A stretch of 64,000 bases of DNA from an uncultured Clostridia bacterium (GCA_944387915.1 CALXGT010000057.1:9990-73989), one strand, 5' to 3'. Counted from the first letter of the stretch, positions 19,390-63,603 are shown. Notes: generated by a model from the letters alone, not told the origin. Made by a program: numbers and translations.

Positions 19390-19432
19390 ACTTGATAAAT
19401 TCGCATATCTCTTTTTGTAAAATGACAATAAA

Positions 19433-19815: not shown

Positions 19816-19864
19816 TTGTATTATAATATATAATATAGTATTTTTACTTTTGAAGGTGTTTCTT

Positions 19865-19891: not shown

Positions 19892-19944
19892 ACGATAGAA
19901 GGAAAAACTAAATATCCTTCTATCGCTTCAAAAGCATAGGAGGA
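19883..19944 (+). promoter_or_regulatory. Four-segment translational attenuator sequestering the ABC exporter RBS
   Basis: Seg1 tccttcta (19883-90), seg2 cgatagaagga (19893-903), seg3 tccttctatcg (19915-25), seg4 ataggagga (19936-44, contains the GGAGG SD). Pairings: 1:2 = 8 bp, 2:3 = 11 bp, 3:4 = 9 bp with one G-U. No U-run follows 3:4. Confidence 0.6.
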
Positions 19945-19948
19945 AAAT

Positions 19949-21547: not shown

Positions 21548-21579
21548 ATAGCGATTTTCGTTCCACAATTACCCAAAAG

Positions 21580-21621
21580 GCCGCCCGCGTGAACAATCAC
21601 ATGGGCGGTTATCTCGTTTTT
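21580..21621 (+). terminator. Probable terminator after the ABC exporter
   Basis: ggccgccc ... gggcgg imperfect hairpin followed by ttatctcgTTTTT. Confidence 0.45.
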
Positions 21622-21774
21622 ATATCAATTTGGACTGTATGACCCGAGAATATTCCTGCTTGTCTAAATGATATGATTTTCATCTGACACACATCCTGCC
21701 TAAGCTTACTATATAAGATTGCAATTTGCTTAACAAGTATGCAAAAGCTTTCAAAGGTATTATAAGACAGAGGA

Positions 21775-21810
21775 AAAAAGGACTCTGATTTTTCGTCAGA
21801 GCCCCTCCAT
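21775..21810 (-). terminator. Rho-independent terminator on the minus strand, about 160 nt downstream of the guaA stop
   Basis: Minus strand reads ggctctga-cgaaaaa-tcagagtcc followed by TTTTTT. Confidence 0.6.
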
Positions 21811-21968
21811 TACTCATTTTTCAGTTTCGCCGCAAAGCTACTTATAACAATTTCATCTGCTGCAAAACTTTTTGTGCGTGATGTGTTGCAACAGTGTTGC
21901 AATACGGATAGGCGATTTAAGCTGTACCCGCAAACCCGCATAAATACTGGGTTTGAGACTTTTTCAAT

Positions 21969-41354: not shown

Positions 41355-41888
41355 CTACAGAGTAAAGAAACGATGCCCTTCCATCTCGAAGCAAAAAGAC
41401 AATCGATTCTCAAACCAGTTCGCCGCGGAACCAACCGCCCATTTGGGCGCGTAGAAGAACATAGCGTTTTGAGAGAGGTCCGGCGTCGTACCGCTTAAAA
41501 CCTCGGCGACAGCCTGTTTGGTATCGGCATCCGGCGGATAATTTCTCTGGTAGTAGTTTTCGATAGAGCAAAATTGGTTTTTCTGGGTCAACACCTCGGC
41601 GATGGTATCTGGAAAGGCGTTCGACTTTACACGATTGAGAATTACATACGCGATAATCCGTTTATGCTCTATCGACGCTCCGCGCACTTCCTGCTGAACC
41701 ACGTACTCCATCATTGTCCGTTCTTCCTCGGTGTAAGCCACCGTAGGTGCGGCGACCGTTTCTACTTTCGGACGACGTTCGGCAAAAATGTATCCTGCCT
41801 TTACTGCGCTTTTTAATCCTGCGGCGGACGCTTCCCCGCCAAACAACAAAAAAGACGCCAGCAAAAAACACAAGAATTTTCGATACAA
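41355..41888 (-). CDS. Cell wall hydrolase, SleB/Hydrolase_2 family, with signal peptide
   Basis: ...VILNRVKSNAFPDTIAEVLTQKNQFCS... is typical of the SleB catalytic domain. Confidence 0.8.
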   Translation of the reverse strand: MYRKFLCFLLASFLLFGGEASAAGLKSAVKAGYIFAERRPKVETVAAPTVAYTEEERTMMEYVVQQEVRGASIEHKRIIAYVILNRVKSNAFPDTIAEVLTQKNQFCSIENYYQRNYPPDADTKQAVAEVLSGTTPDLSQNAMFFYAPKWAVGSAANWFENRLSFCFEMEGHRFFTL

Positions 41889-41961
41889 AATCCTTCCCCC
41901 TTTTCTTTTTAGAAAGTATTCACAAAAAAGGAGGATTTATACCATTTCTCCCGAAATAGAC

Positions 41962-41997
41962 AAACCCGGAGGCAGTAAATCCTGTCTCCGGGTTTTT
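41962..41997. terminator. Hairpin terminator at the distal end of the esterase array
   Basis: aaacccggag ... ctccgggttt, a 10-bp stem, with T-rich flanks on both strands. Confidence 0.6.
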
Positions 41998-42019
41998 ACT
42001 ATGGATGATTGGGACAAAA

Positions 42020-42823
42020 TTACGCTTCGTCCGGATAGATAACACTATGCCGGATGGGAAGCCAATGATTCAGCGCTTTACGCAAAGTCAGATCCCAGAA
42101 ATCCCACTCATGCTTGTAACCGGGCACCGCTTCAAAATGGACCTTGCAGCCAAGGCCGATCATATGCTGCGCCGTTGTAGTGGAATCAGGGTAAGCACCT
42201 TCATCGGCGGTGCCCACAGTAAAGAAGAACTCCGGCATATCCTTGCCCGCTTTGACCTGGGTCACTGCGTAATTCCACGGATCGTTGATGCCGTTGGGAT
42301 CCGCGCCGAATTTAGGCTCGGGAGAACGCTCTTTTCCGCCGTTGGCGTTGGGACCCCGTCCGCCGCCGGACATACAAAGCGCCGCCGCGTACCGTTCGGG
42401 ATAGGTCACCGCTAACTTATATGTACCCATCGCGCCCATGGAAAGGCCCGCTACAAAGTTATCCTCTCTTTTATCCGAGAAGGGGAAGATCGCCCGGCAC
42501 ATTTTCGGAAGCTCATCGGCAACAAATTCAAAGTATTTCGCGCCGTTGGGATCATCGGTGTAGCTGGCGTTGTAGTCAGCAGGCATAACCACCGCGATCT
42601 TGTTATCGTCCGCGTAACGGGTGATATTGGAGAAGTGAAGATAATCGCTGTCGTCGCCGGTTCCGCCATGCAACAGCCACAAAACCTGGTACTTCATCCC
42701 CGGTACATAAACGTCTTTTCTCCCCGACATAATGTCGGCAAAGCTAAACGACGGCAGACAAACAGTGATATTGGTCTGCATCCCAAGGGTTTGGGAAAGG
42801 AAATTCATTTTAATGACTGCCAT
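42020..42823 (-). CDS. EstA-like serine esterase (PF00756-type putative esterase / esterase D family), array copy 1
   Basis: GLSMG nucleophile elbow, GTAD acid candidate, GYKHEW His motif. No signal peptide. Confidence 0.85.
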   Translation of the reverse strand: MAVIKMNFLSQTLGMQTNITVCLPSFSFADIMSGRKDVYVPGMKYQVLWLLHGGTGDDSDYLHFSNITRYADDNKIAVVMPADYNASYTDDPNGAKYFEFVADELPKMCRAIFPFSDKREDNFVAGLSMGAMGTYKLAVTYPERYAAALCMSGGGRGPNANGGKERSPEPKFGADPNGINDPWNYAVTQVKAGKDMPEFFFTVGTADEGAYPDSTTTAQHMIGLGCKVHFEAVPGYKHEWDFWDLTLRKALNHWLPIRHSVIYPDEA

Positions 42824-42857
42824 AAAACAATGTCCTCCTTTAATTCAAATCAAATGA

Positions 42858-43661
42858 TTATTTCGTTTCATCGGGATAAATGACACTGTGGCGGATGGGG
42901 AGCCATTCTTTAATCACCTTGCGCAGCGTCAAATCCCAGAAATCCCACTCGTGGCCGTAACCCGGCACTTCCTCATAGGTCAGCTCGTAGCCCAAGCCTT
43001 CCATATACTCCCGACAAGCACGAACGCTCTCCAGCACAAAATCCTTGTCACCGGCGGTAATATAAAACTTCGGAACCTGAACGCCGTTTTCCTTATTCCT
43101 TTTTGCCGCCGCCCATGCGTCTTCCGGAGAACCGGGCTCCGGCAGGATCCGTTTGGTTCCCAATTTGGAGACCTTTCCCGTTTTCGCGGGATCGCCTCCG
43201 GCGCCGCTCATGCAGACTGCCGCCGCATACAGATCGGGACGAAGCATCGCGCACTTAAAGGTCCCGGCGCCGCCCATGGAAAGGCCGGCGACAAAGTTAT
43301 CCTCTCTCTTATCCGAAAAGGGAAAAATGGACCGGCACATTGTGGGAAGCTCTTCGGTAACAAAGGTAAAATATTTGGCGCCATCGGGGTCATCCGCGTA
43401 AAAATGGTTGTAATCACACGGCATTACCACCGCCAATTTATGGTCGTCCGCATAGCGGGTAATGTTGGAGAAATTAACGTAGTCGCTGTCGTCTCCGCTT
43501 CCTCCATGCAGGAGCCATAAAACCTGGTACTTCATTCCCGGTACGTAAACGTCCTTTCTTCCCGCCATAATGTCGGCGAAGCTGAAAGAAGGCAGACAAA
43601 TGGTCACATTGGTCTGCATCCCAAGCGCCTGGGAAAGAAAGTTCATCTTAATGACTGCCAT
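42858..43661 (-). CDS. EstA-like serine esterase, array copy 2
   Basis: GLSMG, AGDKDF, GYGHEW. No signal peptide. Confidence 0.85.
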   Translation of the reverse strand: MAVIKMNFLSQALGMQTNVTICLPSFSFADIMAGRKDVYVPGMKYQVLWLLHGGSGDDSDYVNFSNITRYADDHKLAVVMPCDYNHFYADDPDGAKYFTFVTEELPTMCRSIFPFSDKREDNFVAGLSMGGAGTFKCAMLRPDLYAAAVCMSGAGGDPAKTGKVSKLGTKRILPEPGSPEDAWAAAKRNKENGVQVPKFYITAGDKDFVLESVRACREYMEGLGYELTYEEVPGYGHEWDFWDLTLRKVIKEWLPIRHSVIYPDETK

Positions 43662-43669
43662 AGTTCCTC

Positions 43670-44458
43670 CTATTTGGCCTCATCCGGATAGATAACGCTG
43701 TGACGAATGGGAAGCCATTCATTCAACGCCTTGCGCAGGGTCAGATCCCAGAAATCCCACTCATGGCCGTAACCCGGTACTTCTTCTTCAAACACATCGT
43801 AACCGATCTCTTTTAAGATCTTGCAGGTGTCCTTATGATTATCCCGGACAAAATCCTTATCGCCCCAGCTCATAAAGAACTTGGGAACAGGAACGCCTTT
43901 GGCGATATTCTCTTTCGCCGCCGCCACGTTGGCGTCGGTAACCGCGTTTTCCTTTTCGCTGCGCTTACGGCCGTTATTTGCTTCCACCTTGCTTACCGAA
44001 CCGCCGGACATACCAAGTACCGCCGCGTATTTCTCCGGATATTTCAGCGCGATCTTCTGGCAACCCGCGGAACCCATAGAAAGACCGCCGATGAAGTTAT
44101 CCTCTCTCTTGTCCGAGAAGGGGAAAATCGCCTGGCACATTTTGGGAAGCTCTTCCGCGACAAAGGTCATAAACTTGCCATGCTCATTGTCCGCGTATCC
44201 CATATTGTAGTCGGCAGGCATAACCACCGCGATCTTGTTGTCGTCCGCATAACGAGTGATGTTGGAAAAATGAAGGTAGTCGCTGTCATCGCCGCTGCCG
44301 CCATGTAAGAGCCACAGTACCTGATACTTCATTCCCGGTACATAAACGTCTTTTCTGCCCGACATAATGTCAGCAAAGCTGAACGACGGAAGACAGATCG
44401 TTACGTTGGTCTGCATCCCAAGACATTGGGAAAGAAAATTCATTTTGATTACTGCCAT
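43670..44458 (-). CDS. EstA-like serine esterase, array copy 3
   Basis: GLSMG, WGDKDF, GYGHEW. Its stop TAG overlaps the SD of copy 2. Confidence 0.85.
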   Translation of the reverse strand: MAVIKMNFLSQCLGMQTNVTICLPSFSFADIMSGRKDVYVPGMKYQVLWLLHGGSGDDSDYLHFSNITRYADDNKIAVVMPADYNMGYADNEHGKFMTFVAEELPKMCQAIFPFSDKREDNFIGGLSMGSAGCQKIALKYPEKYAAVLGMSGGSVSKVEANNGRKRSEKENAVTDANVAAAKENIAKGVPVPKFFMSWGDKDFVRDNHKDTCKILKEIGYDVFEEEVPGYGHEWDFWDLTLRKALNEWLPIRHSVIYPDEAK

Positions 44459-44492
44459 AAATTAATTCCTCCTTGATATTGACAATCTATAA

Positions 44493-45296
44493 TTATTCCT
44501 TTTCATCCGGATAGATGATACTATGACGAATGGGGAGCCATTCATTCAACGCTTTCCGAAGGGTCAAATCCCAGAAATCCCACTCATGGCCGTAGCCCGG
44601 CACTTCCTCTTCGAAAACATCATACCCCAGCTCCCGCAAAAAATCGGTAGACCGTTTATGCGCTTCCCGGACATCATGATCATTCTCGCCCCAGGTCATA
44701 AAAAATTTCGGCGTCTGCACCCCCTCTCTGATCCATTTTTCAGCAAGCAACCTGCTTTCTTCCATTTGGCCTTCTTTTCTCGGCGACATCGGTATTCCGA
44801 GATTCAGCTGATTTCCGCCCGGCTTTTCCCAAAAGCCGCCTCTGGACATCGCCAGCACCGCAGCGTAATTTTGAGGATAGCGAATAGCGATCTTCTGGCA
44901 CCCGTCAGACCCCATAGAAAGACCGCCGATAAAATTATCCTCTCTCTTGTCCGAAAAAGGAAAAATTGCCCGGCACATCCTGGGAAGCTCTTCCGCCACA
45001 TAGGTCATAAACTTGCCGTGCTCCCAGTCTGTATACGCCATATTGTAATTTGCCGGCATAACCACCGCAATCTTGTTGTCGTCCGCATAACGGGTGATGT
45101 TGGAGAAATTCAAGTAATCGCTGTCATCGCCGCTTCCGCCATGCAAAAGCCACAATACCTGGTACTTCATCCCCGGTACATAAACGTCCTTTCTCCCCGA
45201 CATAATGTCGGCGAAGCTAAACGACGGCAGACAAATGGTCACATTGGTCTGCATCCCAAGGCATTGGGAAAGGAAATTCATTTTAATAACTGCCAT
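44493..45296 (-). CDS. EstA-like serine esterase, array copy 4
   Basis: GLSMG, WGENDHD, GYGHEW. Confidence 0.85.
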   Translation of the reverse strand: MAVIKMNFLSQCLGMQTNVTICLPSFSFADIMSGRKDVYVPGMKYQVLWLLHGGSGDDSDYLNFSNITRYADDNKIAVVMPANYNMAYTDWEHGKFMTYVAEELPRMCRAIFPFSDKREDNFIGGLSMGSDGCQKIAIRYPQNYAAVLAMSRGGFWEKPGGNQLNLGIPMSPRKEGQMEESRLLAEKWIREGVQTPKFFMTWGENDHDVREAHKRSTDFLRELGYDVFEEEVPGYGHEWDFWDLTLRKALNEWLPIRHSIIYPDEKE

Positions 45297-45329
45297 AAAG
45301 TAAATTCCTCCTTATACTTTAACAAAAAA

Positions 45330-46130
45330 TTATTTTACATCTTCCGGATAGATGACACTATGACGAATGGGGAGCCATTCATTCAACGCTTTCCGAAGGG
45401 TCAAATCCCAGAAATCCCACTCATGGGCATACCCTGGAACTACCTCTTCGAAAACATCATAACCCAACTCCCGCAAAAAATCGGTAGACCGTTTATGCGC
45501 TTCCCGGACATGATCATTCTCGCCCCAGGTCATAAAAAATTTCGGCGTCTGCACCCCCTCTCTGATCCATTTTTCAGCAAGCAACCTGCTTTCTTCCATT
45601 TGGCCTTCTTTTCTCGGCGGCATCGGTATTCCGAGATTCAGCTGATTTCCGCCCGGCTTTTCCCAAAAGCCGCCTCCGGACATCGCCAGCACCGCAGCGT
45701 AATTTTGAGGATAGCGAATAGCGATCTTCTGGCACCCGCCAGACCCCATAGAAAGACCGCCGATAAAATTATCCTCTCTCTTGTCCGAGAAGGGGAAAAT
45801 CGCCCGGCACATCTTCGGAAGCTCCTCCGCGACATAGGTCATAAACTTTCCGTAATCGTTATCCGTATAGCTCATGTTGTAATCGGCGGGCATTACCACC
45901 GCGATTTTGTTGTCATCAGCATAGCGGGTGATGTTGGAAAAATTGAGATAGTCGCTGTCGTCTCCGCTTCCCCCGTGCAAAAGCCATAAAACCTGGTACT
46001 TCATTCCCGGTACGTAAACGTCTTTTCTTCCCGACATAATGTCGGCAAAACTAAACGACGGCAGGCAAATGGTTACGTTGGTCTGCATCCCAAGGCACTG
46101 GGACAGGAAATTCATCTTAATGACTGCCAT
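45330..46130 (-). CDS. EstA-like serine esterase, array copy 5 (first gene of the array)
   Basis: GLSMG, WGENDH, GYAHEW. ATG 46130 lies behind AAGGAG (the track ORF is 3 codons longer). Confidence 0.85.
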   Translation of the reverse strand: MAVIKMNFLSQCLGMQTNVTICLPSFSFADIMSGRKDVYVPGMKYQVLWLLHGGSGDDSDYLNFSNITRYADDNKIAVVMPADYNMSYTDNDYGKFMTYVAEELPKMCRAIFPFSDKREDNFIGGLSMGSGGCQKIAIRYPQNYAAVLAMSGGGFWEKPGGNQLNLGIPMPPRKEGQMEESRLLAEKWIREGVQTPKFFMTWGENDHVREAHKRSTDFLRELGYDVFEEVVPGYAHEWDFWDLTLRKALNEWLPIRHSVIYPEDVK

Positions 46131-46361
46131 AAAAAACACTCCTTTTCCTTAATTAAGTTTATTTTACCACTTTTGTTAAAAAATGTCATCATCAAACAGT
46201 AAAAAAACTCTCTTATCAAATGAAAATTATCACTTTGCAATAAAAAGGCAGTGCATTTTTGTGATTTATTCTGATAAAATAAAATTTTGCCTAAATTTCT
46301 TGCACATCTCCTTTCTTTGTCATACAATAAGAGAATAGACTAAAAAGAAAAGAGGACAATT

Positions 46362-47582
46362 ATGACTGCATCGCACCAAGAACCCCAAAAACTTTGGAAC
46401 CGCTCTTACATTCTGGTATTGTCTTTGGGGGTGTTTACTTCCATGGCATCTCAGATGGTAACACCCCTCATCTCCAAGTACGCCCTTTCTCTGGGCGCGC
46501 CGTTGACCTTTGCCGCTACCATTGCATCCATGATGTCCATTGCCGCTTTGGTATTTCGCCCGTTTTCCGGCATGGTTTCCGACCGGGTCAACCGGAAACT
46601 TTTGATGATTATCGGCACTTTAGTCACTGCCGCGTCCGTTTTCCTTTACTCTTTTGCCGAAGGCACCACATCTTTGATGATTATGCGGATGATACATGGA
46701 ATTGCCTTCTCTTTCATGGGCGTTGCCAATATGGCGTTTGGAAGCTCCTTTATTCCCAAAGACCGCATGGGAGAAGGTATGGGATATTTGGGACTGGGCG
46801 CTATTCTTTCTTCGGCAATTGGTCCCAACTTGGGATTATCCCTCAGCGAAAGCTTCGGATACCCCATCTGCTTTACCATTTCCGCGATTATTTCGCTGGC
46901 CGCAGTGGGAATGATGTGTATCATCCCCTATGAAGCGCCGAAAAAAACCGAAAAGAAGAAATTTTCCTTTAACGATCTTATTGCCGGGGAAATTGTAATC
47001 TACGCGATGATTATGGGTCTGTTTAGCTGTGGAAACGGTCTTTTAAATACCTACCTCGCTCTGATCGGTGACGAGCGGCACATTTCCAACATCGCCCTTT
47101 TCTTTACCGCCTACTCCGTCGCCATTGTAGTGATCCGTCCCCTTACCGGAAAGATTTTGGACCGGAGAGGTTTGACCGTTATCTTAATTCCCGCTTTATT
47201 TGTCGCCTGCATTAGTATGTTTATTGTCGGCGCGGCACATACCCTTTGGCTTTTCGTTCTGGCGGGAGCGTTGAAAGCTATCGGTCAAGGCGCCGGCTCC
47301 CCTTCCATCCAAGCGAACTGTGTTAAAACGTTAGGCCGGGAACGGGCGGGCGTCGCGAGCTCTACCTGTTACATCGGTCAGGATATCGGAAACGCGTTTG
47401 CTCCCATTGTAGGCGGTGTGGTCGCTACCTCTTACGGATATGATACCGTTTTTTATGGGTACGCAATTTTGCTCCTCGTATTAGGCCTGGGATTGTACTC
47501 CATCCAATTGAGAATCGAAAAACGGAAAACGAAAGCTGTAGACGAAAGCCCTTTGATTTCCACTGCTGTCATTCCTGAGTAG
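46362..47582 (+). CDS. MFS transporter
   Basis: 406 aa, 12 TM segments. GMVSDRVNRK loop 2-3 motif. Divergent from the esterase array. Confidence 0.88.
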   Translation: MTASHQEPQKLWNRSYILVLSLGVFTSMASQMVTPLISKYALSLGAPLTFAATIASMMSIAALVFRPFSGMVSDRVNRKLLMIIGTLVTAASVFLYSFAEGTTSLMIMRMIHGIAFSFMGVANMAFGSSFIPKDRMGEGMGYLGLGAILSSAIGPNLGLSLSESFGYPICFTISAIISLAAVGMMCIIPYEAPKKTEKKKFSFNDLIAGEIVIYAMIMGLFSCGNGLLNTYLALIGDERHISNIALFFTAYSVAIVVIRPLTGKILDRRGLTVILIPALFVACISMFIVGAAHTLWLFVLAGALKAIGQGAGSPSIQANCVKTLGRERAGVASSTCYIGQDIGNAFAPIVGGVVATSYGYDTVFYGYAILLLVLGLGLYSIQLRIEKRKTKAVDESPLISTAVIPE

Positions 47583-47639: not shown

Positions 47640-50504
47640 TTAAAGGTCGGGATAGTGCTGTTTCATCGCCAAAGAACGCATGATCACTGAGAGATTGTTT
47701 ATCGCGCAGCGCTGCACATCGCCGGTACAAATCTTCGGATGATTTTGCCATATTCCCCGATAGGTAATAGATTTTTTGTCCGGCGCAATCGTGGCAATTT
47801 TATTGGTAATAGGCCGCTCTTTTTGGAGTTTTGGTCCTTCCTTGGTTAGAAGCAGCTTATTCTCCGCGTATTGAAGCTCACCGTTCACAGAAAGAATCCC
47901 GTCGACAAACTCGATCTCACAATCGGTGGAAATGGGAGCTACGACTTCGTCGCTTCCCCCTTCATCCGGCAGGAAAGAGTTCCATTCAGGCACAGAAATG
48001 GGAATAAAAATCCGCTCCGTGCGGTAGGAAATCCCGCCGTTTTCCTGGAATACGGGAGGAATCGTCTGGAACGCCATCAAAATATTCATGATCCGCGCGC
48101 TTCCACCGGGCATGATCAAATCATTCCCCGCATGCATGGAAATGTAAGGCGTGGAACGTCCGCCGTTCCAGTCGGTCATAATCAGTCCATCGAAGCCCCA
48201 CTCGCCTCTGGCGATGTTGGTGTTCATCGAGTAATGATCCGCCGCCGGAATTCCGTTGATCCGGTTGTAGGAGGTCATAATGGTCATCGGCTTAGATTCC
48301 TTAACGGCAATCTCAAACCCTTTCAGGTAAATTTCCCGCAACGCCCGTTCGCTCACCACCGAATCCTCACTGTTTCGGTTGGTTTCCTGGTTGTTGGCGG
48401 CAAAGTGCTTGATACAGGCGCCGATTCCATCCCGGCTCTGAATGCCTTTTACGATCGCGGCTCCCATCTTTCCGGTGAGAAGGGGATCTTCGCTGTAATA
48501 CTCGAAGTTTCTTCCGCACAGAGGGTCACGATGGATGTTCATACCGGGACCAAGCAAAACCGCGATTCCGATTTCCTCAAGTTCCTCGGAAAATGCCTTA
48601 CCGACTTCCTCGAGAAGAGCCTCATCGAAGCTTTGCGCCAAAAGGGTTCCCACCGGCCAGGCAGTGCAAAAATGGAACTTCTCTACCTTTTCTCCGGTAG
48701 CCAAATCGGTAGCGGTAAAATGCTGGCCTACCCGAACACCGCCGGGGCCGTCAGCTACCACCATGGAAGGAATACCGAACTCCTCCATCATATCCACTGT
48801 CTCTCCGGCAGCGCCGGGAATGGTGGCGGAATTACTTCCGATAATGGGAGAACTGTCGTTCTGGACGCCCCATCCGGTACCGCAGTTTAACGTAGCAAGC
48901 TGTAAAGGAGAAAGCTGTGCAACTAACTCGGCAAGCGTTGCCTTACCCTGGTAAACATCTTTGAGGGTAATATTCTTCTTCTCTACGAGGCATACCGATT
49001 CATACGGCATCACGGCCTTGTAATCCGGATCGGTAGTGTAAGTGGTCACCTTCTCATCCCAATAAGGAGAGGCATGGTTTTCGGTTTTTACCGCATCCGC
49101 TTCCAGCGCAAACACGGGACAGCCGGAGAAATCCTCGGTGGGCTGGTAGCCTACCGCGCCCGTCTTGCTGATCTCCTGAAGCGCCGTCTGCAAGCGCATT
49201 TCGTTGCGAAGCTGCTCGGTCACCAGCGTTTTTGACACTTTGACCTGGCAAACAGGCATGGTATTTCTTGAAGAGGTTCCGACCCGAACTTGGTACTCCC
49301 CTTTTTCCAAAATATAAGCTGCCGACTCCTGGTCATAGCTGGCAACGTTGCGGAAGGGGAAAGAAAGGGTAAGCGTCTCTTTCTCCCCGGGGGCGAGAAG
49401 TTTTGTCTTCCCAAACGCCGCGAGAGCCTGGAAAGGCTTTTCCAGCTTTCCATCCGGTGCGGAAACATAAAGCTGAAGCACTTCTTTCCCGGCGTAAGTA
49501 TCTCCCACATTGGTCACAGTGACCGTCACGGAAAGATCCTCTCCGGAAAGAGCAGCGGTTACATTCCCGAGGGAGAACTGCGTATAGCTTAACCCGTATC
49601 CGAAAGGATACAAAGGCGCAATGCCAAAGGTATCGAAATACCGATACCCAACATAGATTCCTTCCTCGTATTTCTCGGTGTCTACATTGTTGTCATTGTT
49701 GGAGAAGGTTGCGGACGCGGGGTAATCTGCGTACGTTTTCGCCCAGGTATCAGTCAATTTTCCGCTGGGGGTAACTTTCCCTGTTATCACGTCCGCCAGT
49801 GCCAAACCGCCTTCCTGGCCCGCCTGACACATCGAGAGGATAGCACCCAGGCCGGAAATACCCTGCACTTCACTCAAATCCACAGGTCCGCCGCTGTTGA
49901 GTACCAATACCACTTTGGAGAAGGTGCCGCAAAGAGTATGGATGATCTCTTTTTCATGCGCGCTCAGGCAATAGTCGCCCATTTCATACTCTACACCGTC
50001 TTCGGTGATAGTGTAGGTCATTGTACGGTCATGTCCTTCACCCGTATTCCGGGAAAGGACATAAATCGCCGTATCCGTTTTTTCAGCACAAGCGGAAATT
50101 TCCTCTTTGGAAGGCATGTATTCAGGAAAGCTGAACACCGCCATGGGATTGTAGCTGTTTTTCACCATCTTGGCATCATACTTTTCCGCGTAAGCCGAAA
50201 GCGATTCCCGGTTCACAACCTGGAACCCCTCGGAAAGAAACGCGTCCATAATATTGATATGATACCGCGGACTTTGATTAACTAAAATGTCTCCGCCGCC
50301 GGAAACACCGCCGTTAAAAGGATCTCCAGAACCGGTTCCGCCGCGAATGGTTCGAACGGCGCCGCTTCCAAACAATGCAATGGTTCTTTCGGTCAACGGA
50401 AGAGTTTGATTTTCATTTTTCAGTAAAACCATGCCTTCCGCACCGGCTCTACGCGCTATTTTCGCGTTTCGGATTTCCCGTTCACTCATCGAAGGGTACT
50501 GCAT
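47640..50504 (-). CDS. Glycoside hydrolase family 3 beta-glucosidase with permuted domain order
   Basis: 954 aa from ATG 50504 (behind GGAGG). The sandwich-domain block (AEGMVLLKNENQTLPL) and Fn3-like block (GLSYTQF...LQLYVS) come before the barrel blocks KHFAANNQE and LIMTDW. Confidence 0.88.
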   Translation of the reverse strand: MQYPSMSEREIRNAKIARRAGAEGMVLLKNENQTLPLTERTIALFGSGAVRTIRGGTGSGDPFNGGVSGGGDILVNQSPRYHINIMDAFLSEGFQVVNRESLSAYAEKYDAKMVKNSYNPMAVFSFPEYMPSKEEISACAEKTDTAIYVLSRNTGEGHDRTMTYTITEDGVEYEMGDYCLSAHEKEIIHTLCGTFSKVVLVLNSGGPVDLSEVQGISGLGAILSMCQAGQEGGLALADVITGKVTPSGKLTDTWAKTYADYPASATFSNNDNNVDTEKYEEGIYVGYRYFDTFGIAPLYPFGYGLSYTQFSLGNVTAALSGEDLSVTVTVTNVGDTYAGKEVLQLYVSAPDGKLEKPFQALAAFGKTKLLAPGEKETLTLSFPFRNVASYDQESAAYILEKGEYQVRVGTSSRNTMPVCQVKVSKTLVTEQLRNEMRLQTALQEISKTGAVGYQPTEDFSGCPVFALEADAVKTENHASPYWDEKVTTYTTDPDYKAVMPYESVCLVEKKNITLKDVYQGKATLAELVAQLSPLQLATLNCGTGWGVQNDSSPIIGSNSATIPGAAGETVDMMEEFGIPSMVVADGPGGVRVGQHFTATDLATGEKVEKFHFCTAWPVGTLLAQSFDEALLEEVGKAFSEELEEIGIAVLLGPGMNIHRDPLCGRNFEYYSEDPLLTGKMGAAIVKGIQSRDGIGACIKHFAANNQETNRNSEDSVVSERALREIYLKGFEIAVKESKPMTIMTSYNRINGIPAADHYSMNTNIARGEWGFDGLIMTDWNGGRSTPYISMHAGNDLIMPGGSARIMNILMAFQTIPPVFQENGGISYRTERIFIPISVPEWNSFLPDEGGSDEVVAPISTDCEIEFVDGILSVNGELQYAENKLLLTKEGPKLQKERPITNKIATIAPDKKSITYRGIWQNHPKICTGDVQRCAINNLSVIMRSLAMKQHYPDL

Positions 50505-50518
50505 ATTGGCCTCCGTAC

Positions 50519-51286
50519 TTAAATTTTTCTCAGCTCGCCCGCGTAAGCGTCGGTGCGGGGAAGCCAGCGAATGAACTGTTCTACCGTATCGTTCCAAAAA
50601 CGCCACTCGTGGGCTTTTCCTTTCGCTTCCTGCCAGGTGACATCTGCGCCCAACTCCTTTAACATATCCCGGAATGCGGCATCTTGGGTATACAGGGGAT
50701 CGTCAGTTCCGCAAGAAAGGAAGACTTTTGGGAATTCTTTCTTTTCTTCCGCAATGCGGCGAGCCGCCATCTCAGGATCATCCGGTTTCAGAGCCGCGCC
50801 GGGGAGTTGAATACCGGCGGAAAAGCCACCGATCGCCCGGTACAGTTCAGGATGATTCAATCCGTTATACAAAGCGCCGTAACCGCCCATGGAAAGACCG
50901 GCCAGGTAGCTGTCCTCCCGCTTAGTGGAAATGGGGAAATACGCGCTCAAGAACTCAGGAAGCTCTTTGGTGAGAAAATCGCCGAAGAGATTCTTATCGA
51001 TGCCCTGGCTGGGCTGGTTTTTGAACGCCTTGTTCTCGCCGGAGAAAATTGCTACCGCAATATTGGCTTCCTCTGCGAAAAACTCAATATTGGTGTAGGA
51101 GGTCCAAGCGTTAAAGTCATTCCATCCGCCATGGAGCAGATACAAAATAGGATATTTCCCCTTGGGAAGCGTATGGGAAGCGTCCGGCATACAAGATTCC
51201 GGACAGGTCATAGACGGAACGATTACCGTCATCTCAATGCTCCGGGCCAACGAATAGGAAATAAACGAACAAGTAAAACGCGCCAT
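50519..51286 (-). CDS. Putative esterase (PF00756-type), distant paralog of the array
   Basis: YPILYLLHGG, GLSMGGYG, GTDD, and HEWRFW motifs. ATG 51286 lies behind GAAGGAG. Confidence 0.85.
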   Translation of the reverse strand: MARFTCSFISYSLARSIEMTVIVPSMTCPESCMPDASHTLPKGKYPILYLLHGGWNDFNAWTSYTNIEFFAEEANIAVAIFSGENKAFKNQPSQGIDKNLFGDFLTKELPEFLSAYFPISTKREDSYLAGLSMGGYGALYNGLNHPELYRAIGGFSAGIQLPGAALKPDDPEMAARRIAEEKKEFPKVFLSCGTDDPLYTQDAAFRDMLKELGADVTWQEAKGKAHEWRFWNDTVEQFIRWLPRTDAYAGELRKI

Positions 51287-51316
51287 AACAATCTCCTTCA
51301 ATTACCAAAGATTTTT

Positions 51317-52141
51317 TTATTCAATCAAGCCAGTTTCTTTCATGTTGTAGCAAGCGGCGGTGAGGCTCTCTTTCTGATCCAAATGGTTGTAGAAATCCTG
51401 TTCCACGATCGCCCATTCGATATTTTCCTCAATACCCGCTTGCAGGCAACCCTTCAGATCCAACTCACCGGTTCCAACGGTAGTGAACTGAGGTACTTTT
51501 ACATTGTCAAACCGGGGATAATTCACAATATTAGGCTGGTAGTCCTTAATATGCAACGCAGCGATCCGTTTTTTCAGCTGATGAATCAGTTTTACCGGAT
51601 CCGCGCCGGCAAAGTCCGCCCAACCGCAATCCAGCTCGAAGGTCAACGCCTCGGTGTTGGCGGCAATCAGTTGAAGCTGGGGAACGCCTTTGTAGCACTG
51701 TCTAAGCTCCACGTCATGGTTATGATACATCAGGCTAATGCCTTCCTTTTTAAAGAAAGCCGCTTTGGTTTCAAAGTCCTCGATCTCTTTCATGATCTCG
51801 TCATAAGGAGCGGGATCGGGTCTGCCGCCAAAGCGATACGCCGACGCCAGATTATCAAACGCCACAACCCGAGTCACTTCCAGCTTATGGGCATTCTCTA
51901 CCAGCTCTTCCATGGTTACAGGAGGCCGTCCGGGGAAGCTCATATAGCTGATATCAATAGGAGTGATCCCATAGCTTCTTACCCGCTTTAAATTTTCTTT
52001 TACATCGCCGTCCAAAAGAGCGGTTCCGTTTTCGAAGCCTTTAAAGCCCAATTTTCCGTAGTATTCCAGATAACTGTAATACTCTTCTCCCTTCACACCG
52101 AAGGGCATAAAATTAATAAAACCTGCTTTAATTTTTTCCAT
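51317..52141 (-). CDS. Sugar phosphate isomerase/epimerase (xylose isomerase-like TIM barrel)
   Basis: About 274 aa with an AP_endonuc_2-like pattern (..NHD.EL....; LHIKD..; WAIVEQD). Confidence 0.75.
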   Translation of the reverse strand: MEKIKAGFINFMPFGVKGEEYYSYLEYYGKLGFKGFENGTALLDGDVKENLKRVRSYGITPIDISYMSFPGRPPVTMEELVENAHKLEVTRVVAFDNLASAYRFGGRPDPAPYDEIMKEIEDFETKAAFFKKEGISLMYHNHDVELRQCYKGVPQLQLIAANTEALTFELDCGWADFAGADPVKLIHQLKKRIAALHIKDYQPNIVNYPRFDNVKVPQFTTVGTGELDLKGCLQAGIEENIEWAIVEQDFYNHLDQKESLTAACYNMKETGLIE

Positions 52142-52248
52142 TTTTTTCTTCCTTTCCAATAATAAATTCTAAACAAATAATAAAGCCCGCCTTAAATAAC
52201 AAACCGAAGCCGGCGTTATTACAGACAGGCCTTATCAACAGAGAAAAA

Positions 52249-53949
52249 TTACTCAGCGAGCTTCCAAACCTTGTTGTTGAAACGATCAACAGAAGTCTGT
52301 TTCAGCTCGATGCAACGAGCGATGTTCATGCCGTTAACGGTATCAACATAAGTTTCCCACTCGGCGTCAATGTCTCTGGTCCCCAAAATAAAGGAAACGG
52401 TCATTTCCTGAACGTAGGTCTGAATGTCCAGATACAGGTCGTCGTACTCCTGAGACTCCTCGGAAGTAAAGGAAGCAGCGGCAGGGAGCATAATCGCGTC
52501 AGTTTCCTGACCCCAGATCTCGTAAGCTCTCTCGCTCCAGTCGTTTCCGGTGAGCTCGTACAGCTGCCAGCCGTCTTTCCAATCCATAAATCCTACATCA
52601 TAGCAGGTGGTGTAAGCGGTAACCATGGAAGTGGTAGAGCGGCCAGGCTCCTCAGGATATTTGATGAGGTCAGTATAAACGTAGTACCACTCGCTGTCCG
52701 GATCCACTTCGTAGGAAACCCCTTCGACACCGTAAGCGTTGAGCACATCATAGTCATAGGTGTAGTGCCAGTCAAGCCATTGGGCCAAAATGGGCATCTC
52801 TTCCTCAGGAACGGAAGTGGTCACATAGGTGGGTTGCAGCGCGATGTTCGCCTGATAAGTAACCTGGATCTCGTCGCCTTCTTCCGCAACAACACCATAC
52901 ATCGGCTCAAGATAGAAGTCGGGGTTATCGGTAGAACCCTGGTTATACAACGTTTTACCGCACTGACCATGAAGCGCAACGCCGACGCCGCATTTCTCGG
53001 TAGCAAAGGTCTCGTTGGTGCTCATAACATACCAACCGTTATTGGTGGTAAAGTCAGGATTGATAAGACCCTCCGCGTACCAGTCGCGCATCAATTCGCA
53101 GTATGCTTTATATCCATCCGTAGTAGGGCCATAAGCCACCTTACCGTTATCCATGTAGTAGCTGGAGGTCACGCCAAAGGTAGAAAGAATATAGTCGTTT
53201 CCAAGAATACCGGTAGCATGGAAATCCATCCAGGCGCCGTAATTCTCTTTAAACGCAACCAAGACCTCATGGAGATCGTCAACCGTTACGGGAACCTCCA
53301 TATTCAGTTCCTCGAGCCAGTCTCTTCGAATCGCCATACCGCACCAGTTGGGCTCGTTTTCGATTACAACCTGCTGGTTGTGACCGTCAACATAAGTACG
53401 GATCATGTAAAGGCCAACGTTGTTTCCCTCATCAGTGATGACAATTCGCCGAATGTCCTCCCGATCCTCAAGAAGGGTACGGTAGTTGGGCATATAATAT
53501 TTGACGTAATCGGTCATATTCCAGAGAACGCCGTCGCTGACTCCGGCTTCTTCTCCACCGGGATAGGGGAGCTGACCGTTGTCAAAGATCATATCCGGCC
53601 ATTCACCGGCAGCAAGCATCAAACCGTATTTTTCAACAGCGGCAGTACCGGGAACACAGGTATAGTCGATGTGAATATTGGTGAGTTCTTCGATCTTCTG
53701 GATCGCCGCCACTTCTCCGTAATTGGAAAGATAGTCATCGGACCATCCTCTCCAGGAAGTGAAGGTCATCTTTTCTTCGGTAATAGGAAGGGTGATCTCT
53801 GTAAGCGGCTCTAATTCTTCCGTATCCTCCGCCGTCTGAGAGCTTCCTCCACTGCTACCGCTTGACGAATTGCCCGTATCTTCGCCGCAGGAAACAAAGG
53901 CCATACAGCACATAGAAAGAGCGAGAATCAACGTCAACAGCTTTTTCAT
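52249..53949 (-). CDS. Extracellular solute-binding lipoprotein (large family-1 SBP, LplA-like), paralog 1
   Basis: Lipobox LSMCCMAFVSCGE. 566 aa. About 75% identical by eye to the neighbouring paralog. Confidence 0.88.
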   Translation of the reverse strand: MKKLLTLILALSMCCMAFVSCGEDTGNSSSGSSGGSSQTAEDTEELEPLTEITLPITEEKMTFTSWRGWSDDYLSNYGEVAAIQKIEELTNIHIDYTCVPGTAAVEKYGLMLAAGEWPDMIFDNGQLPYPGGEEAGVSDGVLWNMTDYVKYYMPNYRTLLEDREDIRRIVITDEGNNVGLYMIRTYVDGHNQQVVIENEPNWCGMAIRRDWLEELNMEVPVTVDDLHEVLVAFKENYGAWMDFHATGILGNDYILSTFGVTSSYYMDNGKVAYGPTTDGYKAYCELMRDWYAEGLINPDFTTNNGWYVMSTNETFATEKCGVGVALHGQCGKTLYNQGSTDNPDFYLEPMYGVVAEEGDEIQVTYQANIALQPTYVTTSVPEEEMPILAQWLDWHYTYDYDVLNAYGVEGVSYEVDPDSEWYYVYTDLIKYPEEPGRSTTSMVTAYTTCYDVGFMDWKDGWQLYELTGNDWSERAYEIWGQETDAIMLPAAASFTSEESQEYDDLYLDIQTYVQEMTVSFILGTRDIDAEWETYVDTVNGMNIARCIELKQTSVDRFNNKVWKLAE

Positions 53950-54307: not shown

Positions 54308-56122
54308 TTACTCAGCGGAGCTCTCAGAAGAAGATTCGGAAGACTCCATAGCCTCAGAGGACTCAGAGGATTCAGAAGACTCAGATACTTCGGAAGAAGA
54401 AGTGGCATCGTCGCCGGATTCAACAATCAAGTCGGCCAATTTCCACTCTTTGCCGGTGTAACGGTCAACGGAGGTCTGCTTGAGCTCGATGCAGCGATCA
54501 ATGTTCATACCATTGATGGTATTGATAAAAGTATCCCATTCCGCATCGATATCTCTGGTGCCCATGATGAAGGAAACGGTCATTTCCTGAACATAGGTGT
54601 CGATATCGAGGAAGATATCATCGTACTCCTGAGACTCTTCCGCAGTAAAGGAAGCGCCGGCAGGAAGCATGATCGCATCGGTCTGCTGACCCCAGGTCTC
54701 ATAGCCCTTCTGAGACCAGTCGTTGCCGGACAGCTCAAAGTTCTGCCAGGTGGATCTCCAGTCCATATAGCCGATGTCAAAGCTGGGAGCAACAAAAGCC
54801 AAGGCGGAGGTGGTGGTCATACCGGGAGTTTCCGGATGGGTAACCTTATCGGTAAACACATAGTACCACTCGCTGTTCTCGTCTACCGTGTAGCTATCGC
54901 CTTCCAGACCGTAAGAGCACATTACATCCCAATCGTAGGTGTAATGATAATCGATCCACTGCGCCAGGTAAGGCATCTCCTCGTCGGTGACAGAGGTGGT
55001 GGCATATACCGGCTGCAAAGCGATCAGAGCCTGGTAGGTGGTCACAACGGGATCGCCTTCGTTCAGTACGGGAGCAACCATAGGAGACAGATAGAAGTCT
55101 TCGTTAGCGGTAGCGCCGGTATCGTACAGGTAAGAACCAAGGAAACCGTGGAGATAAATGCCCACACCGATTACATCGTTCGCGTAGTTGGTGTTGTCGC
55201 TGGTGAGGTACCAACCGGTGTTGGTGATGAAGTCGGGGTTGATAAGACCCTCGGCGTACCAGTCACGCATCAGAGTCACATACTCTTTGTAAGCATCGGT
55301 GGTAGGACCATACGCAACCTTACCATTGTTCATATAGAAGTCGGAAGTGACACCATACGCGGAAAGGATGCAGTCATAACCCAAAGTACCGTCGCTGTAA
55401 AGATCCATGGTACCGCCATAGTTGTCCTTGAAAGCAACCAGAACGTCATGGAGCTCGTCAATGGTGGTGGGGATCTCCATGTTGAGCTCGTCCAGCCAGT
55501 CCTGACGGATCGCCATACCAGCCCAGCAGGGCTCGTTTTCAATCACGACCTCGTGATTGGCACCATCCACACGGGTACGGATCATATAAGCGCCTACGTT
55601 ATTGCCTTCGTCGGTAACAACAACCTGTCTTACATCCTCATTGGTGGCAATCAGGTTTCTGTAATTGGGCATATAGTACTCAACATAGTGAGTCAGATCA
55701 CGCAAAACGCCATCATCGATACCCGCCTCTTCACCGCCGGGATAAGGGGTGGTACCGCCATCGTAGATCATATCCGGGAAGTCACCGGAAGCCAGCATCA
55801 GACCGTATTTCTCGGTGCCGGCAGTGCTGGGAACACAGGTGTAATCCACATGGATGTTGGTCATTTCTTCCAATTTCTGGATCGCAGTGGTTTCTCCGTA
55901 GTTGGTCATATAATCGCTAGACCAAACACGCCACTGAGTGAAACTCATAGGCTCCTCGGAAATGGGAAGAGTAATCTCGGTCAAGGGCTCGAGAGTATCT
56001 TCTTCCGCCGTCTGGGAGCCTTGGCTACCGCTGTTCGATGAATTGTCTGTATCTTCGCCGCAGGAAACAAAGGCCGTACAGCACATCGAAAGAGCGAGAA
56101 GCAACGTCAACAGCTTTTTCAT
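54308..56122 (-). CDS. Extracellular solute-binding lipoprotein, paralog 2, with an acidic Ser/Glu-rich C-terminal tail
   Basis: MKKLLTLLLALSMCCTAFVSCGE lipobox. ATG 56122 lies behind GGAGG (the track ORF is 50 codons too long). The tail reads DLIVESGDDATSSSEVSESSESSESSEAMESSESSSESSAE. Confidence 0.88.
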   Translation of the reverse strand: MKKLLTLLLALSMCCTAFVSCGEDTDNSSNSGSQGSQTAEEDTLEPLTEITLPISEEPMSFTQWRVWSSDYMTNYGETTAIQKLEEMTNIHVDYTCVPSTAGTEKYGLMLASGDFPDMIYDGGTTPYPGGEEAGIDDGVLRDLTHYVEYYMPNYRNLIATNEDVRQVVVTDEGNNVGAYMIRTRVDGANHEVVIENEPCWAGMAIRQDWLDELNMEIPTTIDELHDVLVAFKDNYGGTMDLYSDGTLGYDCILSAYGVTSDFYMNNGKVAYGPTTDAYKEYVTLMRDWYAEGLINPDFITNTGWYLTSDNTNYANDVIGVGIYLHGFLGSYLYDTGATANEDFYLSPMVAPVLNEGDPVVTTYQALIALQPVYATTSVTDEEMPYLAQWIDYHYTYDWDVMCSYGLEGDSYTVDENSEWYYVFTDKVTHPETPGMTTTSALAFVAPSFDIGYMDWRSTWQNFELSGNDWSQKGYETWGQQTDAIMLPAGASFTAEESQEYDDIFLDIDTYVQEMTVSFIMGTRDIDAEWDTFINTINGMNIDRCIELKQTSVDRYTGKEWKLADLIVESGDDATSSSEVSESSESSESSEAMESSESSSESSAE

Positions 56123-56154
56123 TTTTCTTCCTCCATAAAAAGATTTCCTTTCCG

Positions 56155-56195
56155 CCCATGAAAAAAGGCAGACCTTACATTCTGCCCTTTTTTCA
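56155..56195 (-). promoter_or_regulatory. Strong terminator-like hairpin in the 5' leader of SBP paralog 2
   Basis: catgaaaaaaggcaga-ccttacat-tctgcccttttttcatg: about 16 bp with one bulge, with an A-tract and T-tract included. It ends about 35 nt before the RBS. Confidence 0.5.
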
Positions 56196-56404
56196 TGAAA
56201 ACAAGAAAGGAGGCCATTCATCATGCTTGATGAACGTGTCTTCATGATAACTGATTCAAAATAAAGGGGCAAGAAATAATTTTTTCATTTTTAGACAGAA
56301 TTTATTTTCCCCATCTTTTTTATTAGACAAAAGATTGATTTTTCATAAAAAATCTAATATAATAAATATATTCCTGTAGGTTTTTTGACAAAAGGGAGGT
56401 CTGT

Positions 56405-62175: not shown

Positions 62176-63603
<1,428 letters not shown>

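What the first reader, a model, noticed from the sequence alone, without database searches (positions are those of the whole stretch)
42020..46361. Five tandem, co-transcribed paralogous EstA-like esterases with invariant termini and a divergent central segment
Five consecutive minus-strand genes (262-267 aa) are separated by only 8-34 nt, each with its own GGAGG. The first ~100 aa are nearly identical in all five (MAVIKMNFLSQ.LGMQTN.T.CLPSFSFADIM.GRKDVYVPGMKYQVLWLLHGG.GDDSDY..FSNITRYADD.K.AVVMP). So are the last ~30 aa (VPGY.HEWDFWDLTLRK...WLPIRHS.IYP). All keep the GLSMG nucleophile elbow, an acidic residue and the HEW histidine motif, so none looks like a dead copy. The ~90 aa between the nucleophile and the acid/His region differ strongly in sequence and length. 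This is where a substrate-facing insert would lie in alpha/beta hydrolases. None has a signal peptide, so all should be cytoplasmic. From memory the fold family matches pneumococcal tributyrin esterase EstA / esterase D (PF00756). A five-fold, apparently functional, single-operon expansion divergent from an MFS transporter is unusual. It suggests a battery of specificities for imported acylated sugars or glycoside esters. It reads more like a specificity-diversified module than ordinary redundancy.
Basis: partly seen in the sequence, partly recalled or inferred. Interest (0 to 1): 0.72.

Follow-up and report, generated by a model that had tools for sequence, protein, structure and literature searches.

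The report
Tandem five-gene EstA-like esterase operon
A gut or rumen Clostridia genome carries five back-to-back copies of a known cytoplasmic esterase that share an almost identical catalytic core but have four different substrate-pocket "caps", a tidy but unsurprising case of tandem gene-family expansion.

Summary
Observation confirmed. There are five co-oriented minus-strand genes (E5 to E1, 262-267 aa) with 8-34 nt spacers, one promoter-like site and one strong terminator. All match PF00756. By sequence and predicted fold they belong to the EstA/FphF(FrmB)/Est12 clade, with Ser128-Asp207-His238 intact.

The termini are 82-99% identical. The centre (residues 153-231) is 19-39% identical, except between E4 and E5 (97%, dS 0.04). 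So there are four centre types, not five.

The centre corresponds to the family's published cap and acyl-pocket region. Positions equivalent to the FphF leaving-group pocket are near-invariant. Positions equivalent to its acyl pocket vary.

The conserved termini are a family-wide feature (omega 0.002-0.09). They are also homogenised within arrays by gene conversion: codon sharing z is about 4.5 within arrays and about 1 between orthologues. The centre types are ancient orthogroups with type-specific motifs across species.

Arrays of five or more are rare: this species plus one 7-copy array among 159 surveyed loci. Tandem pairs are common.

Substrates are untested, and the MFS neighbour gives little support for a sugar-import story. 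This is a known enzyme family with a neat but unsurprising tandem expansion.

The parts
46161..46189 (-). Promoter-like site upstream of E5 (ATGACA, 17 nt spacer, TAAAAT, with an extended-10 TG)
   Evidence: 10/12 match, the best in the region. It is a consensus match only. The total number of such sites is no higher than in shuffled sequence.
45330..46130 (-). E5, an EstA/FphF-like serine esterase (266 aa from the ATG; RBS AAGGAG). Its centre type is the same as E4's.
44493..45296 (-). E4, an EstA/FphF-like esterase (267 aa). It is a mosaic: from about codon 120 to the 3' end it is near-identical to E5, and the 5' 180 nt is closest to E1.
   Evidence: AF2 model pLDDT 91.1.
43670..44458 (-). 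E3, an EstA/FphF-like esterase (262 aa). Its centre type was found only in this species among the surveyed loci.
42858..43661 (-). E2, an EstA/FphF-like esterase (267 aa). Its centre belongs to the widespread, probably ancestral type (32 of 91 clustered sequences: 86 locus genes plus E1-E5).
42020..42823 (-). E1, an EstA/FphF-like esterase (267 aa). Its centre type is shared with 7 other species (52-59% identity against 19-23% to array-mates).
   Evidence: AF2 model pLDDT 95.8. Foldseek TM 0.75-0.80 to 6vh9, 7l0a, 4rgy and 2uz0.
42131..42367 (-). Variable centre of E1 (residues 153-231): cap loop 152-181, helix 182-191, beta7, the Asp207 loop, helix 211-223 and beta8. Equivalent stretches in the other genes: E2 42972-43205, E3 43784-44005, E4 44607-44843, E5 45444-45677.
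44496..44939 (-). Recent duplication or conversion tract in E4. Its partner in E5 is at about 45333-45773. The tracts are 98-100% nt identical, apart from a short patch around codons 225-240.
   Evidence: (dS 0.04)
41951..41995 (-). Intrinsic terminator after E1: a 10+3 bp G+C-rich hairpin followed by a U-rich tail.
   Evidence: -32.1 kcal/mol for the 88-nt stretch, z -4.9, and 0 of 200 shuffles fold as well. The sequence was read.
46362..47582 (+). Divergently transcribed MFS_1 transporter. This is context; its membership of the system is uncertain.
   Evidence: Homologous MFS genes lie next to esterases in L042, L064 and L058-L060 only.

Best explanation
The locus is a one-promoter, one-terminator operon of five cytoplasmic serine carboxylesterases. 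They belong to the EstA/FphF(FrmB)/Est12 clade of PF00756 alpha/beta hydrolases.

All five share a near-invariant catalytic core. It includes the N-terminal beta1-beta4 strands with the HG oxyanion motif, the nucleophile elbow GLSMG, and the C-terminal His-helix HEWDFWD. By homology with FphF, this core carries the oligomer interfaces and the leaving-group (alcohol) pocket.

The copies differ in the cap loop/helix after beta6 and in the residues flanking the catalytic Asp. In FphF these elements form the acyl pocket.

The array therefore most likely supplies four different substrate pockets (E1, E2, E3 and E4=E5) on one common scaffold. That would make it an esterase battery acting on small esters inside the cell. 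Candidate substrates are dietary or plant-derived esters, possibly acylated glycosides.

In evolutionary terms, the cap types are old orthogroups kept under purifying selection. The array grows and shrinks by unequal crossing-over, and gene conversion keeps the conserved termini alike within a genome.

Shown: family membership, intact triad, fold, the segmental conservation pattern, the orthogroup structure, the conversion signatures and the rarity of large arrays.
Inferred: co-transcription, the pocket mapping (by alignment to a homologue about 28% identical), different specificities, and the substrates.
For: Family and fold.

Triad invariance.

Cap as specificity element: PMC8318587. FphF pocket residues are listed in bioRxiv 10.1101/2020.04.21.054437 and were mapped through the alignment. 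Leaving-group equivalents (E1 positions 56, 127, 239, 240, 243) have 0-0.17 bits entropy across 91 sequences. Acyl-pocket equivalents (154, 159, 160, 163, 208) have 1.8-3.6 bits and differ among E1-E5.

Type-specific conserved motifs across species.

Within-type centre dN is 0.31-0.50, against 0.64-1.40 between types.

Centres cluster by orthogroup across species while N-termini are most similar within a genome.

Codon sharing at identical residues in the N-terminal segment: z 2.6-7.4 within this array (mean 4.5), mean 4.1 within the L002 array, and -1.2 to 2.7 between cross-species orthologues. In the centre it is about 0.

Mosaic breakpoint in E4/E5.

Operon signals.

Context of other esterases and glycosidases.
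Against: No activity, expression or ligand data exist for any copy.

The pocket mapping rests on a profile alignment whose reliability falls inside the cap loop. Model coordinates could not be read, so no distances to Ser128 were measured.

E4 and E5 are near-duplicates, so at least one copy may only add dosage.

The MFS neighbour is generic or efflux-like and is rarely syntenic.

The conserved codon excess could partly reflect selection on mRNA rather than conversion. However, it extends over 85 codons and is absent between orthologues.
Confidence: 0.62

Rival explanations
1. Dosage amplification or redundancy. The copies all do the same job and the array simply raises esterase level. The central divergence is neutral drift in a tolerant surface region.
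For: E4 and E5 are 97% identical in the centre. A closely related strain's assembly shows four rather than five copies (L082). FphF itself is promiscuous.
Against: Each centre type is conserved across species with its own motifs. Within-type dN is far below between-type dN. Seven different types are kept in the L002 array. Variation concentrates at the acyl-pocket equivalents.
Confidence: 0.15
2. Hetero-oligomeric enzyme. EstA and FphF form tetramers through beta1-beta1 and alpha2-alpha2 contacts, and both elements lie in the invariant N-terminal 85 residues. Co-translated paralogues could therefore co-assemble into mixed tetramers. The need to keep the interfaces compatible would explain why the termini stay alike within a genome.
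For: The interfaces are described. The N-terminus is 88-99% identical within this array, against 76-91% to other species. The genes are tightly coupled in one operon.
Against: The N-terminus is also highly conserved in species with a single copy. The synonymous-site signal points to DNA-level conversion, not only protein co-evolution.
Confidence: 0.1
3. Not simple carboxylesterases. The conserved leaving-group pocket may bind one common thiol or alcohol carrier, as in S-formylglutathione hydrolase-type thioesterases. The paralogues would then detoxify or recycle different acyl-thioesters.
For: JGI annotates relatives as S-formylglutathione hydrolase FrmB. There is a weak partial match to TIGR02821. 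The leaving-group pocket equivalents are invariant.
Against: TIGR02821 scores 31-35 bits against a cut-off of 281.7, over only about 55 residues. The nearest characterised relatives (EstA, FphF, Est12) are O-ester hydrolases (PMC5352144).
Confidence: 0.08

Closest known systems
Staphylococcus aureus FphF / FrmB (PDB 6vh9, 7l0a)
   Same: Same fold (TM 0.79-0.80). Profile E-value about 1e-50. Same Ser-Asp-His triad positions, no signal peptide, similar length, and a cap after beta6 that forms the acyl pocket.
   Different: Only 28-29% identical. The nucleophile motif is GHSMG in FphF and GLSMG here. FphF is a single gene, not an array. The cap sequences cannot be aligned in detail.
Est12, a metagenomic cold-active alkaline esterase (PDB 4rgy)
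   Same: Best sequence match among solved structures (E 3e-58, 33-34% identity), including the N-terminal beta-hairpin and the C-terminal HEW..WD helix.
   Different: It comes from marine sediment as a single gene. Its cap is longer and unrelated in sequence.
Streptococcus pneumoniae EstA, a tributyrin and O-acetyl-sialic-acid esterase (PDB 2uz0)
   Same: Same clade (E 3e-39, TM 0.72-0.75). EstA is a cytoplasmic-type esterase with a documented role in deacetylating a sugar (PMC5352144). This is a precedent for a carbohydrate-deacylation role.
   Different: 27-28% identical. It has a narrow C2 pocket. It is a single copy located in a different genomic context.
Tandem paralogue clusters shaped by unequal crossing-over and gene conversion, for example the Lactobacillus plantarum lp_3561/lp_3562 esterase pair (PMC4949240)
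   Same: Adjacent esterase paralogues separated by a few nucleotides. They diverged in function after tandem duplication and vary in presence among strains.
   Different: That pair belongs to lipase family IV, has only two copies, and has no reported conserved-core/variable-cap mosaic.
CE1-type feruloyl and acetyl-xylan esterases (for example 5vol, 6ne9, 7xrt, 1jjf)
   Same: Same superfamily fold and the same Pfam family, with TM 0.62-0.73. They act on plant-derived esters.
   Different: 15-24% identical. Many are secreted or fused to CBMs. The NCBIfam feruloyl esterase model is far below its cut-off.

Membership tests
PF00756 'Putative esterase' (esterase D / EstA superfamily) | Pfam HMM score above the gathering threshold | tested here: met
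   39.8-50.5 bits against a cut-off of 22, for all five proteins
EstA / FphF(FrmB) / Est12 clade | Closest solved relatives by sequence and by fold are members of this clade | tested here: met
   (E 3e-58 to 3e-37). (the top 10 Foldseek hits are all from this clade, TM 0.72-0.80).
EstA / FphF(FrmB) / Est12 clade | Ser-Asp-His triad at the nucleophile elbow (GxSMG), after beta7 and after beta8, plus the HG oxyanion motif | tested here: met
   S128, D207, H238 and H52-G53 are invariant in E1-E5 and in 91 family sequences. They align with the FphF triad.
EstA / FphF(FrmB) / Est12 clade | Variable cap inserted after beta6 that shapes the acyl pocket | tested here: met
   AF2 secondary structure. 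FphF pocket residues mapped through the alignment. Literature statement. Distances in 3D were not measured.
EstA / FphF(FrmB) / Est12 clade | Carboxylesterase activity on short- or medium-chain esters | not testable with these tools
   Needs enzyme assays
EstA / FphF(FrmB) / Est12 clade | Dimer-of-dimers assembly through beta1-beta1 and alpha2-alpha2 contacts | not testable with these tools
   No multimer prediction was available. The interface elements lie in the conserved N-terminal 85 residues.
S-formylglutathione hydrolase (TIGR02821 equivalog) | Full-length match above the curated cut-off | tested here: not met
   31-35 bits against 281.7, covering only about 55 residues around the nucleophile
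Enterochelin esterase (NF007758) and PHA depolymerase (NF050058, TIGR01840) | Match above the curated cut-off | tested here: not met
   28-36 bits against 222, 33-53 against 150, and 26-29 against 108
CAZy CE1 feruloyl / acetyl-xylan esterases | Sequence membership of CE1 and activity on feruloylated or acetylated xylan | tested here: inconclusive
   There is fold similarity only (TM 0.62-0.73, 15-24% identity). NF041944 scores 14-20 bits against 1200. No CAZy HMM library was available.

The most novel reading that the evidence does not exclude
The array may be a modular 'cap cassette' system. Near-invariant termini would act as recombination handles, and possibly as shared oligomer interfaces. 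Gene conversion and unequal crossing-over could then shuffle, duplicate or exchange ancient cap types within and between lineages. Co-expressed paralogues might also assemble into mixed tetramers. Together this would give herbivore-gut Clostridia a rapidly reconfigurable esterase specificity repertoire. One hint is that the array centres are about 100% identical to a MAG whose flanks are only about 85% identical.
Probability: 0.12. Interest if true: 0.6.

Novelty: new member of a known kind. Interest (0 to 1): 0.3.

Why it matters
If the four cap types really encode different specificities on one scaffold, the array is a ready-made natural experiment. It could show how the cap of EstA/FphF-type esterases sets substrate choice. 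That is relevant to rumen ester and plant-glycoside metabolism, to enzyme engineering, and to esterase-activated prodrug design, where FrmB/FphF is a target. It is also a clean bacterial example of partial concerted evolution, with converted termini and protected centres. It does not reveal a new kind of system.

Tried and rejected
1. Recent DNA copying as the only cause of the identical termini. Rejected: N-terminal dS is 0.5 to over 1 with omega 0.002-0.09. Protein-level constraint dominates. An older conversion signal does remain.
2. Assembly artefact. Rejected by four independent assemblies.
3. S-formylglutathione hydrolase, enterochelin esterase or PHA depolymerase identity. Rejected: all are far below their curated cut-offs.
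4. Degenerate copies. Rejected: all ORFs are intact. E4's unusual Arg153 and Asp132 sit at positions that vary within its type and are also present in the MAG copy.
5. Operator-like repeats in the divergent esterase/MFS promoter region. Only one weak 11-nt inverted repeat was found.
6. Internal promoters and terminators. The hits are no more frequent than in shuffled sequence, and the terminator-like hits lie inside conserved coding sequence.
7. Exact-protein look-ups for E1, E4 and E5 found nothing. P0001 and E2 did give contigs.
8. The 667-nt gap in the L002 array is not a decayed esterase.
9. Literature searches for tandem EstA-like arrays found none. The search was limited.
Full report
**1. 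What is there**

Window 42020-46130 holds five co-oriented minus-strand ORFs:

| Gene | Coordinates | Length |
|---|---|---|
| E5 | 45330-46130 | 266 aa from the ATG; the mechanical ORF begins at a GTG 9 nt upstream |
| E4 | 44493-45296 | 267 aa |
| E3 | 43670-44458 | 262 aa |
| E2 | 42858-43661 | 267 aa |
| E1 | 42020-42823 | 267 aa |

- The spacers are 33, 34, 8 and 34 nt.
- E1-E4 are preceded by GGAGG and E5 by AAGGAG.
- The best promoter-like site in the region lies upstream of E5, at 46189-46161 (10/12 match with an extended-10 TG).
- A strong hairpin with a U-rich tail follows E1, at 41995-41951 (z -4.9).
- Internal promoter- and terminator-like hits are no more frequent than in shuffled sequence.
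- Co-transcription is therefore inferred, not shown.
- Independent assemblies reproduce the gene order. L080 and L081 carry E3-E2-E1 at 99.6-99.7% nt identity, L082 carries four copies plus the same downstream flank, and L012 carries E5-E4-E3. Mis-assembly is excluded.

**2. Family**

- All five proteins pass PF00756 (40-50 bits against a cut-off of 22).
- A profile of the five, or of 76 homologues, finds Est12 (4rgy, E 3e-58), S. aureus FrmB/FphF (7l0a and 6vh9, about 1e-50), pneumococcal EstA (2uz0, 3e-39) and S. pyogenes esterase A (4rot).
- The AF2 model of E1 has pLDDT 95.8 and that of E4 has 91.1.
- Foldseek places E1 nearest the same five structures (TM 0.72-0.80). CE1 feruloyl and acetyl-xylan esterases and S-formylglutathione hydrolases follow at TM 0.62-0.73 and 15-24% identity.
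- The NCBIfam models for S-formylglutathione hydrolase, enterochelin esterase and PHA depolymerase are all far below their cut-offs.
- Ser128 (GLSMG), Asp207, His238 and the HG motif are invariant in the five genes and in 91 family sequences.
- Residues 2-23 form the core strands beta1 and beta2 at pLDDT 96-97, as in cytoplasmic FphF and EstA. There is no signal peptide.

**3. Segmental pattern**

| Segment (E1 numbering) | Pairwise protein identity |
|---|---|
| 1-85 | 88-99% |
| 86-152 | 59-91% |
| 153-231 | 19-39% |
| 232-264 | 82-97% |

The exception is E4/E5, whose centres are 97% identical (98% nt, dS 0.04). The array therefore has four centre types.

Across 91 family sequences, mean column entropy is about 0.9-1.0 bits in 1-85, 101-130 and 232-264. 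It is 2.7 bits in 153-196 and 2.3 bits in 208-231. 'Conserved termini, variable centre' is thus a property of the whole subfamily, including single-copy species, and is not specific to this array.

**4. What the variable centre is**

In the models, beta6 (147-151) is followed by these elements:
- a long loop (152-181);
- a helix (182-191);
- beta7;
- the Asp207 loop;
- helix 211-223;
- beta8.

The FrmB paper states that the flexible cap domain is the most striking difference among FrmB, Est12 and EstA. It also says the cap is implicated in their substrate specificity (PMC8318587).

The FphF paper lists two sets of pocket residues (bioRxiv 10.1101/2020.04.21.054437). I mapped them through the profile alignment (chain numbering is the paper's numbering plus 2).

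| Pocket in FphF | FphF residues | E1 equivalents | Conservation |
|---|---|---|---|
| Acyl pocket | L48, V147, N152, L153, L156, W158, F206, L207 | 54, about 154-165, 208-209 | All but the first lie in the variable centre. 1.8-3.6 bits where alignable. Position 208 reads E/F/F/H/H in E1-E5. |
| Leaving-group pocket | S49, S50, H120, D235, Y236, W239 | 55, 56, 127, 239, 240, 243 | 0-0.17 bits, apart from S/T at position 55 |

This suggests a common alcohol-side pocket with diversified acyl-side pockets. It remains an inference.

**5. The centre types are old and constrained**

- Clustering the centres of 91 sequences (86 genes from 79 reference-genome loci plus E1-E5) gives 17 clusters.
- E2 belongs to the widespread type (32 of the 91 sequences, many taxa). 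E1's type occurs in seven other species. E4/E5's type occurs in five other loci. E3's type was seen only in this species.
- E1's centre is 52-59% identical to its cross-species orthologues and 19-23% to its array-mates.
- Each type has its own conserved motifs:
  - E1 type: MSGxxRGP...HSP...NDxW and GTADxxAYPD.
  - E2 type: MSGAxxDP and GDKDF.
  - E4/5 type: MP-MPPH...EE.
- Within-type centre dN is 0.31-0.50 and between-type dN is 0.64-1.40.
- The centres are therefore under type-specific purifying selection, which argues against neutral drift.

**6. How the termini stay alike**

- Synonymous divergence in the N-terminal 85 codons is high within the array (dS 0.48 to over 1, omega 0.002-0.09). 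Protein-level constraint is the main cause.
- A DNA-level signal remains. At identical residues, the same codon is used far more often than the genome's codon usage predicts:

| Comparison (N-terminal segment) | Codon-sharing z |
|---|---|
| Within this array | 2.6-7.4, mean 4.5 |
| Within the 7-copy L002 array | mean 4.1 |
| Cross-species orthologues sharing a centre type | -1.2 to 2.7 |
| Between the two arrays | mean 1.2 |
| Centre, within this array | about 0 |

- The two loci have similar G+C content (0.48 and 0.50).
- E1's N-terminus is 88-95% identical to its array-mates and 76-87% to its orthologues.
- This is partial concerted evolution. Conversion homogenises the termini while the centres escape.
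- Discrete tracts are visible. E4 and E5 are sisters at essentially every informative site from aligned nt ~450 onward. In the first 270 nt, E4 groups with E1 (20 sites) at least as often as with E5 (13 sites). E1 and E4 are 96-98% nt identical over codons 21-55.

**7. How unusual the array is**

- Among the 79 reference-genome loci, 56 carry one copy, 13 carry two and 8 carry three. One is this species' own array (L012).
- One locus, L002 (a Solobacterium-labelled MAG from roe deer), carries seven copies with 3-16 nt spacers, each of a different centre type.
- Among 80 metagenome loci, 22 carry tandem pairs and none carries five or more.
- Short-read contigs often break inside arrays (L001, L012, L074), so these counts are lower bounds.
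- The related MAG also has further paralogues on other contigs (L011, L016).
- Large arrays are rare. They are the extreme of a common tendency in herbivore-gut Clostridia.

**8. Genomic context**

- The divergent MFS gene (46362-47582) matches only generic or efflux-like MFS models, all below their cut-offs. It is syntenic in only a few loci.
- The following genes lie downstream on the minus strand, or further along:

| Coordinates | Strand | Gene |
|---|---|---|
| 47640-50606 | - | GH3 |
| 50519-51301 | - | a distant sixth PF00756 esterase |
| 51317-52159 | - | xylose-isomerase-like TIM protein |
| 52249-53949 | - | unknown 566-aa protein, paralogue of the 654-aa one |
| 54308-56272 | - | unknown 654-aa protein, paralogue of the 566-aa one |
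| 56405-57262 | + | AraC regulator |
| 57259-58815 | + | PF00135 carboxylesterase |
| 58923-61919 | - | GH2 |
| 62188-63603 | + | GH1 |

- PF00135 homologues sit beside EstA-like genes in at least eight other loci, and two of them flank the L002 array.
- The neighbourhood fits glycoside and ester catabolism but does not identify substrates.
- EstA's documented deacetylation of O-acetyl sialic acid (PMC5352144) is a precedent for a sugar-deacylating role.

**9. Verdict**

- The corrections are these:
  - There are four cap types, not five.
  - The conserved termini are family-wide and are partly maintained by gene conversion.
  - A larger array exists elsewhere.
  - The sugar-import story is unsupported.
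- This is a new member, and an unusually large tandem expansion, of a known esterase family.
- It is useful as a natural cap-diversity panel, but it is not a new kind of system.

Noticed in passing
window 41800-45700, compared with L001 and L012 (MAG E01__bin353): Between this genome and a related MAG the flanking genes are only about 75-90% nt identical. The esterase centres and 3' parts are 98-100% identical, with dips to 80-92% exactly at the conserved 5' parts. Either the array was recently exchanged between diverged lineages and conversion then altered the 5' ends, or the short-read MAG contigs are chimeric.
   Followed up: partly
L082 1-3372 (ENA ERZ21563861), compared with window 42020-46250: A closely related strain (flanks 98-100% identical) shows four copies. 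A single E5-like gene with an E4-like C-terminal end replaces the E5+E4 pair. This is either true copy-number variation by unequal crossing-over or an assembly collapse of the 98%-identical tract.
   Followed up: partly
window 50519-51301 (-): A sixth, distant PF00756 esterase (about 30% identical to E1-E5) lies between a xylose-isomerase-like TIM gene and the GH3 gene. Similar distant paralogues lie within a few kb of EstA-like genes in L014, L021, L029, L032 and L039.
   Followed up: partly
window 57259-58815 (+), and L002 5747-9145: A PF00135 type-B carboxylesterase follows an AraC regulator here. Its homologues are immediate neighbours of EstA-like genes in L002-L005, L009, L030, L061 and L074, and two of them flank the 7-copy L002 array. 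This is a recurrent pairing of two esterase families.
   Followed up: partly
window 47640-50606 (-): The GH3 glycosidase has a permuted domain order: GH3_C, then Fn3-like, then GH3_N. The likely true start is the ATG at about 50504, which removes the apparent overlap with the upstream esterase gene.
   Followed up: no
window 52249-53949 and 54308-56272 (-): Two paralogous large proteins (566 and 654 aa) have no Pfam or NCBIfam match. They lie in the same minus-strand gene string as the GH3 and the sixth esterase.
   Followed up: no
L002 10759-11454 (+): A Cys-rich ORF of 231 aa with no Pfam match interrupts the 7-copy esterase array between copies 2 and 3. It is not a decayed esterase.
   Followed up: partly
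window 18001-22000: A low-G+C stretch (0.38-0.40 against about 0.48 elsewhere) contains a fused ABC exporter gene at 19949-21547 (ABC_membrane plus ABC_tran). Nothing else was examined there.
   Followed up: partly
window 44523-45989 (+): A 488-aa open frame runs antisense across E4 and E5, and similar frames lie antisense to E1-E3. These are shadow ORFs of the repeated coding sequence, not evidence of genes.
   Followed up: no
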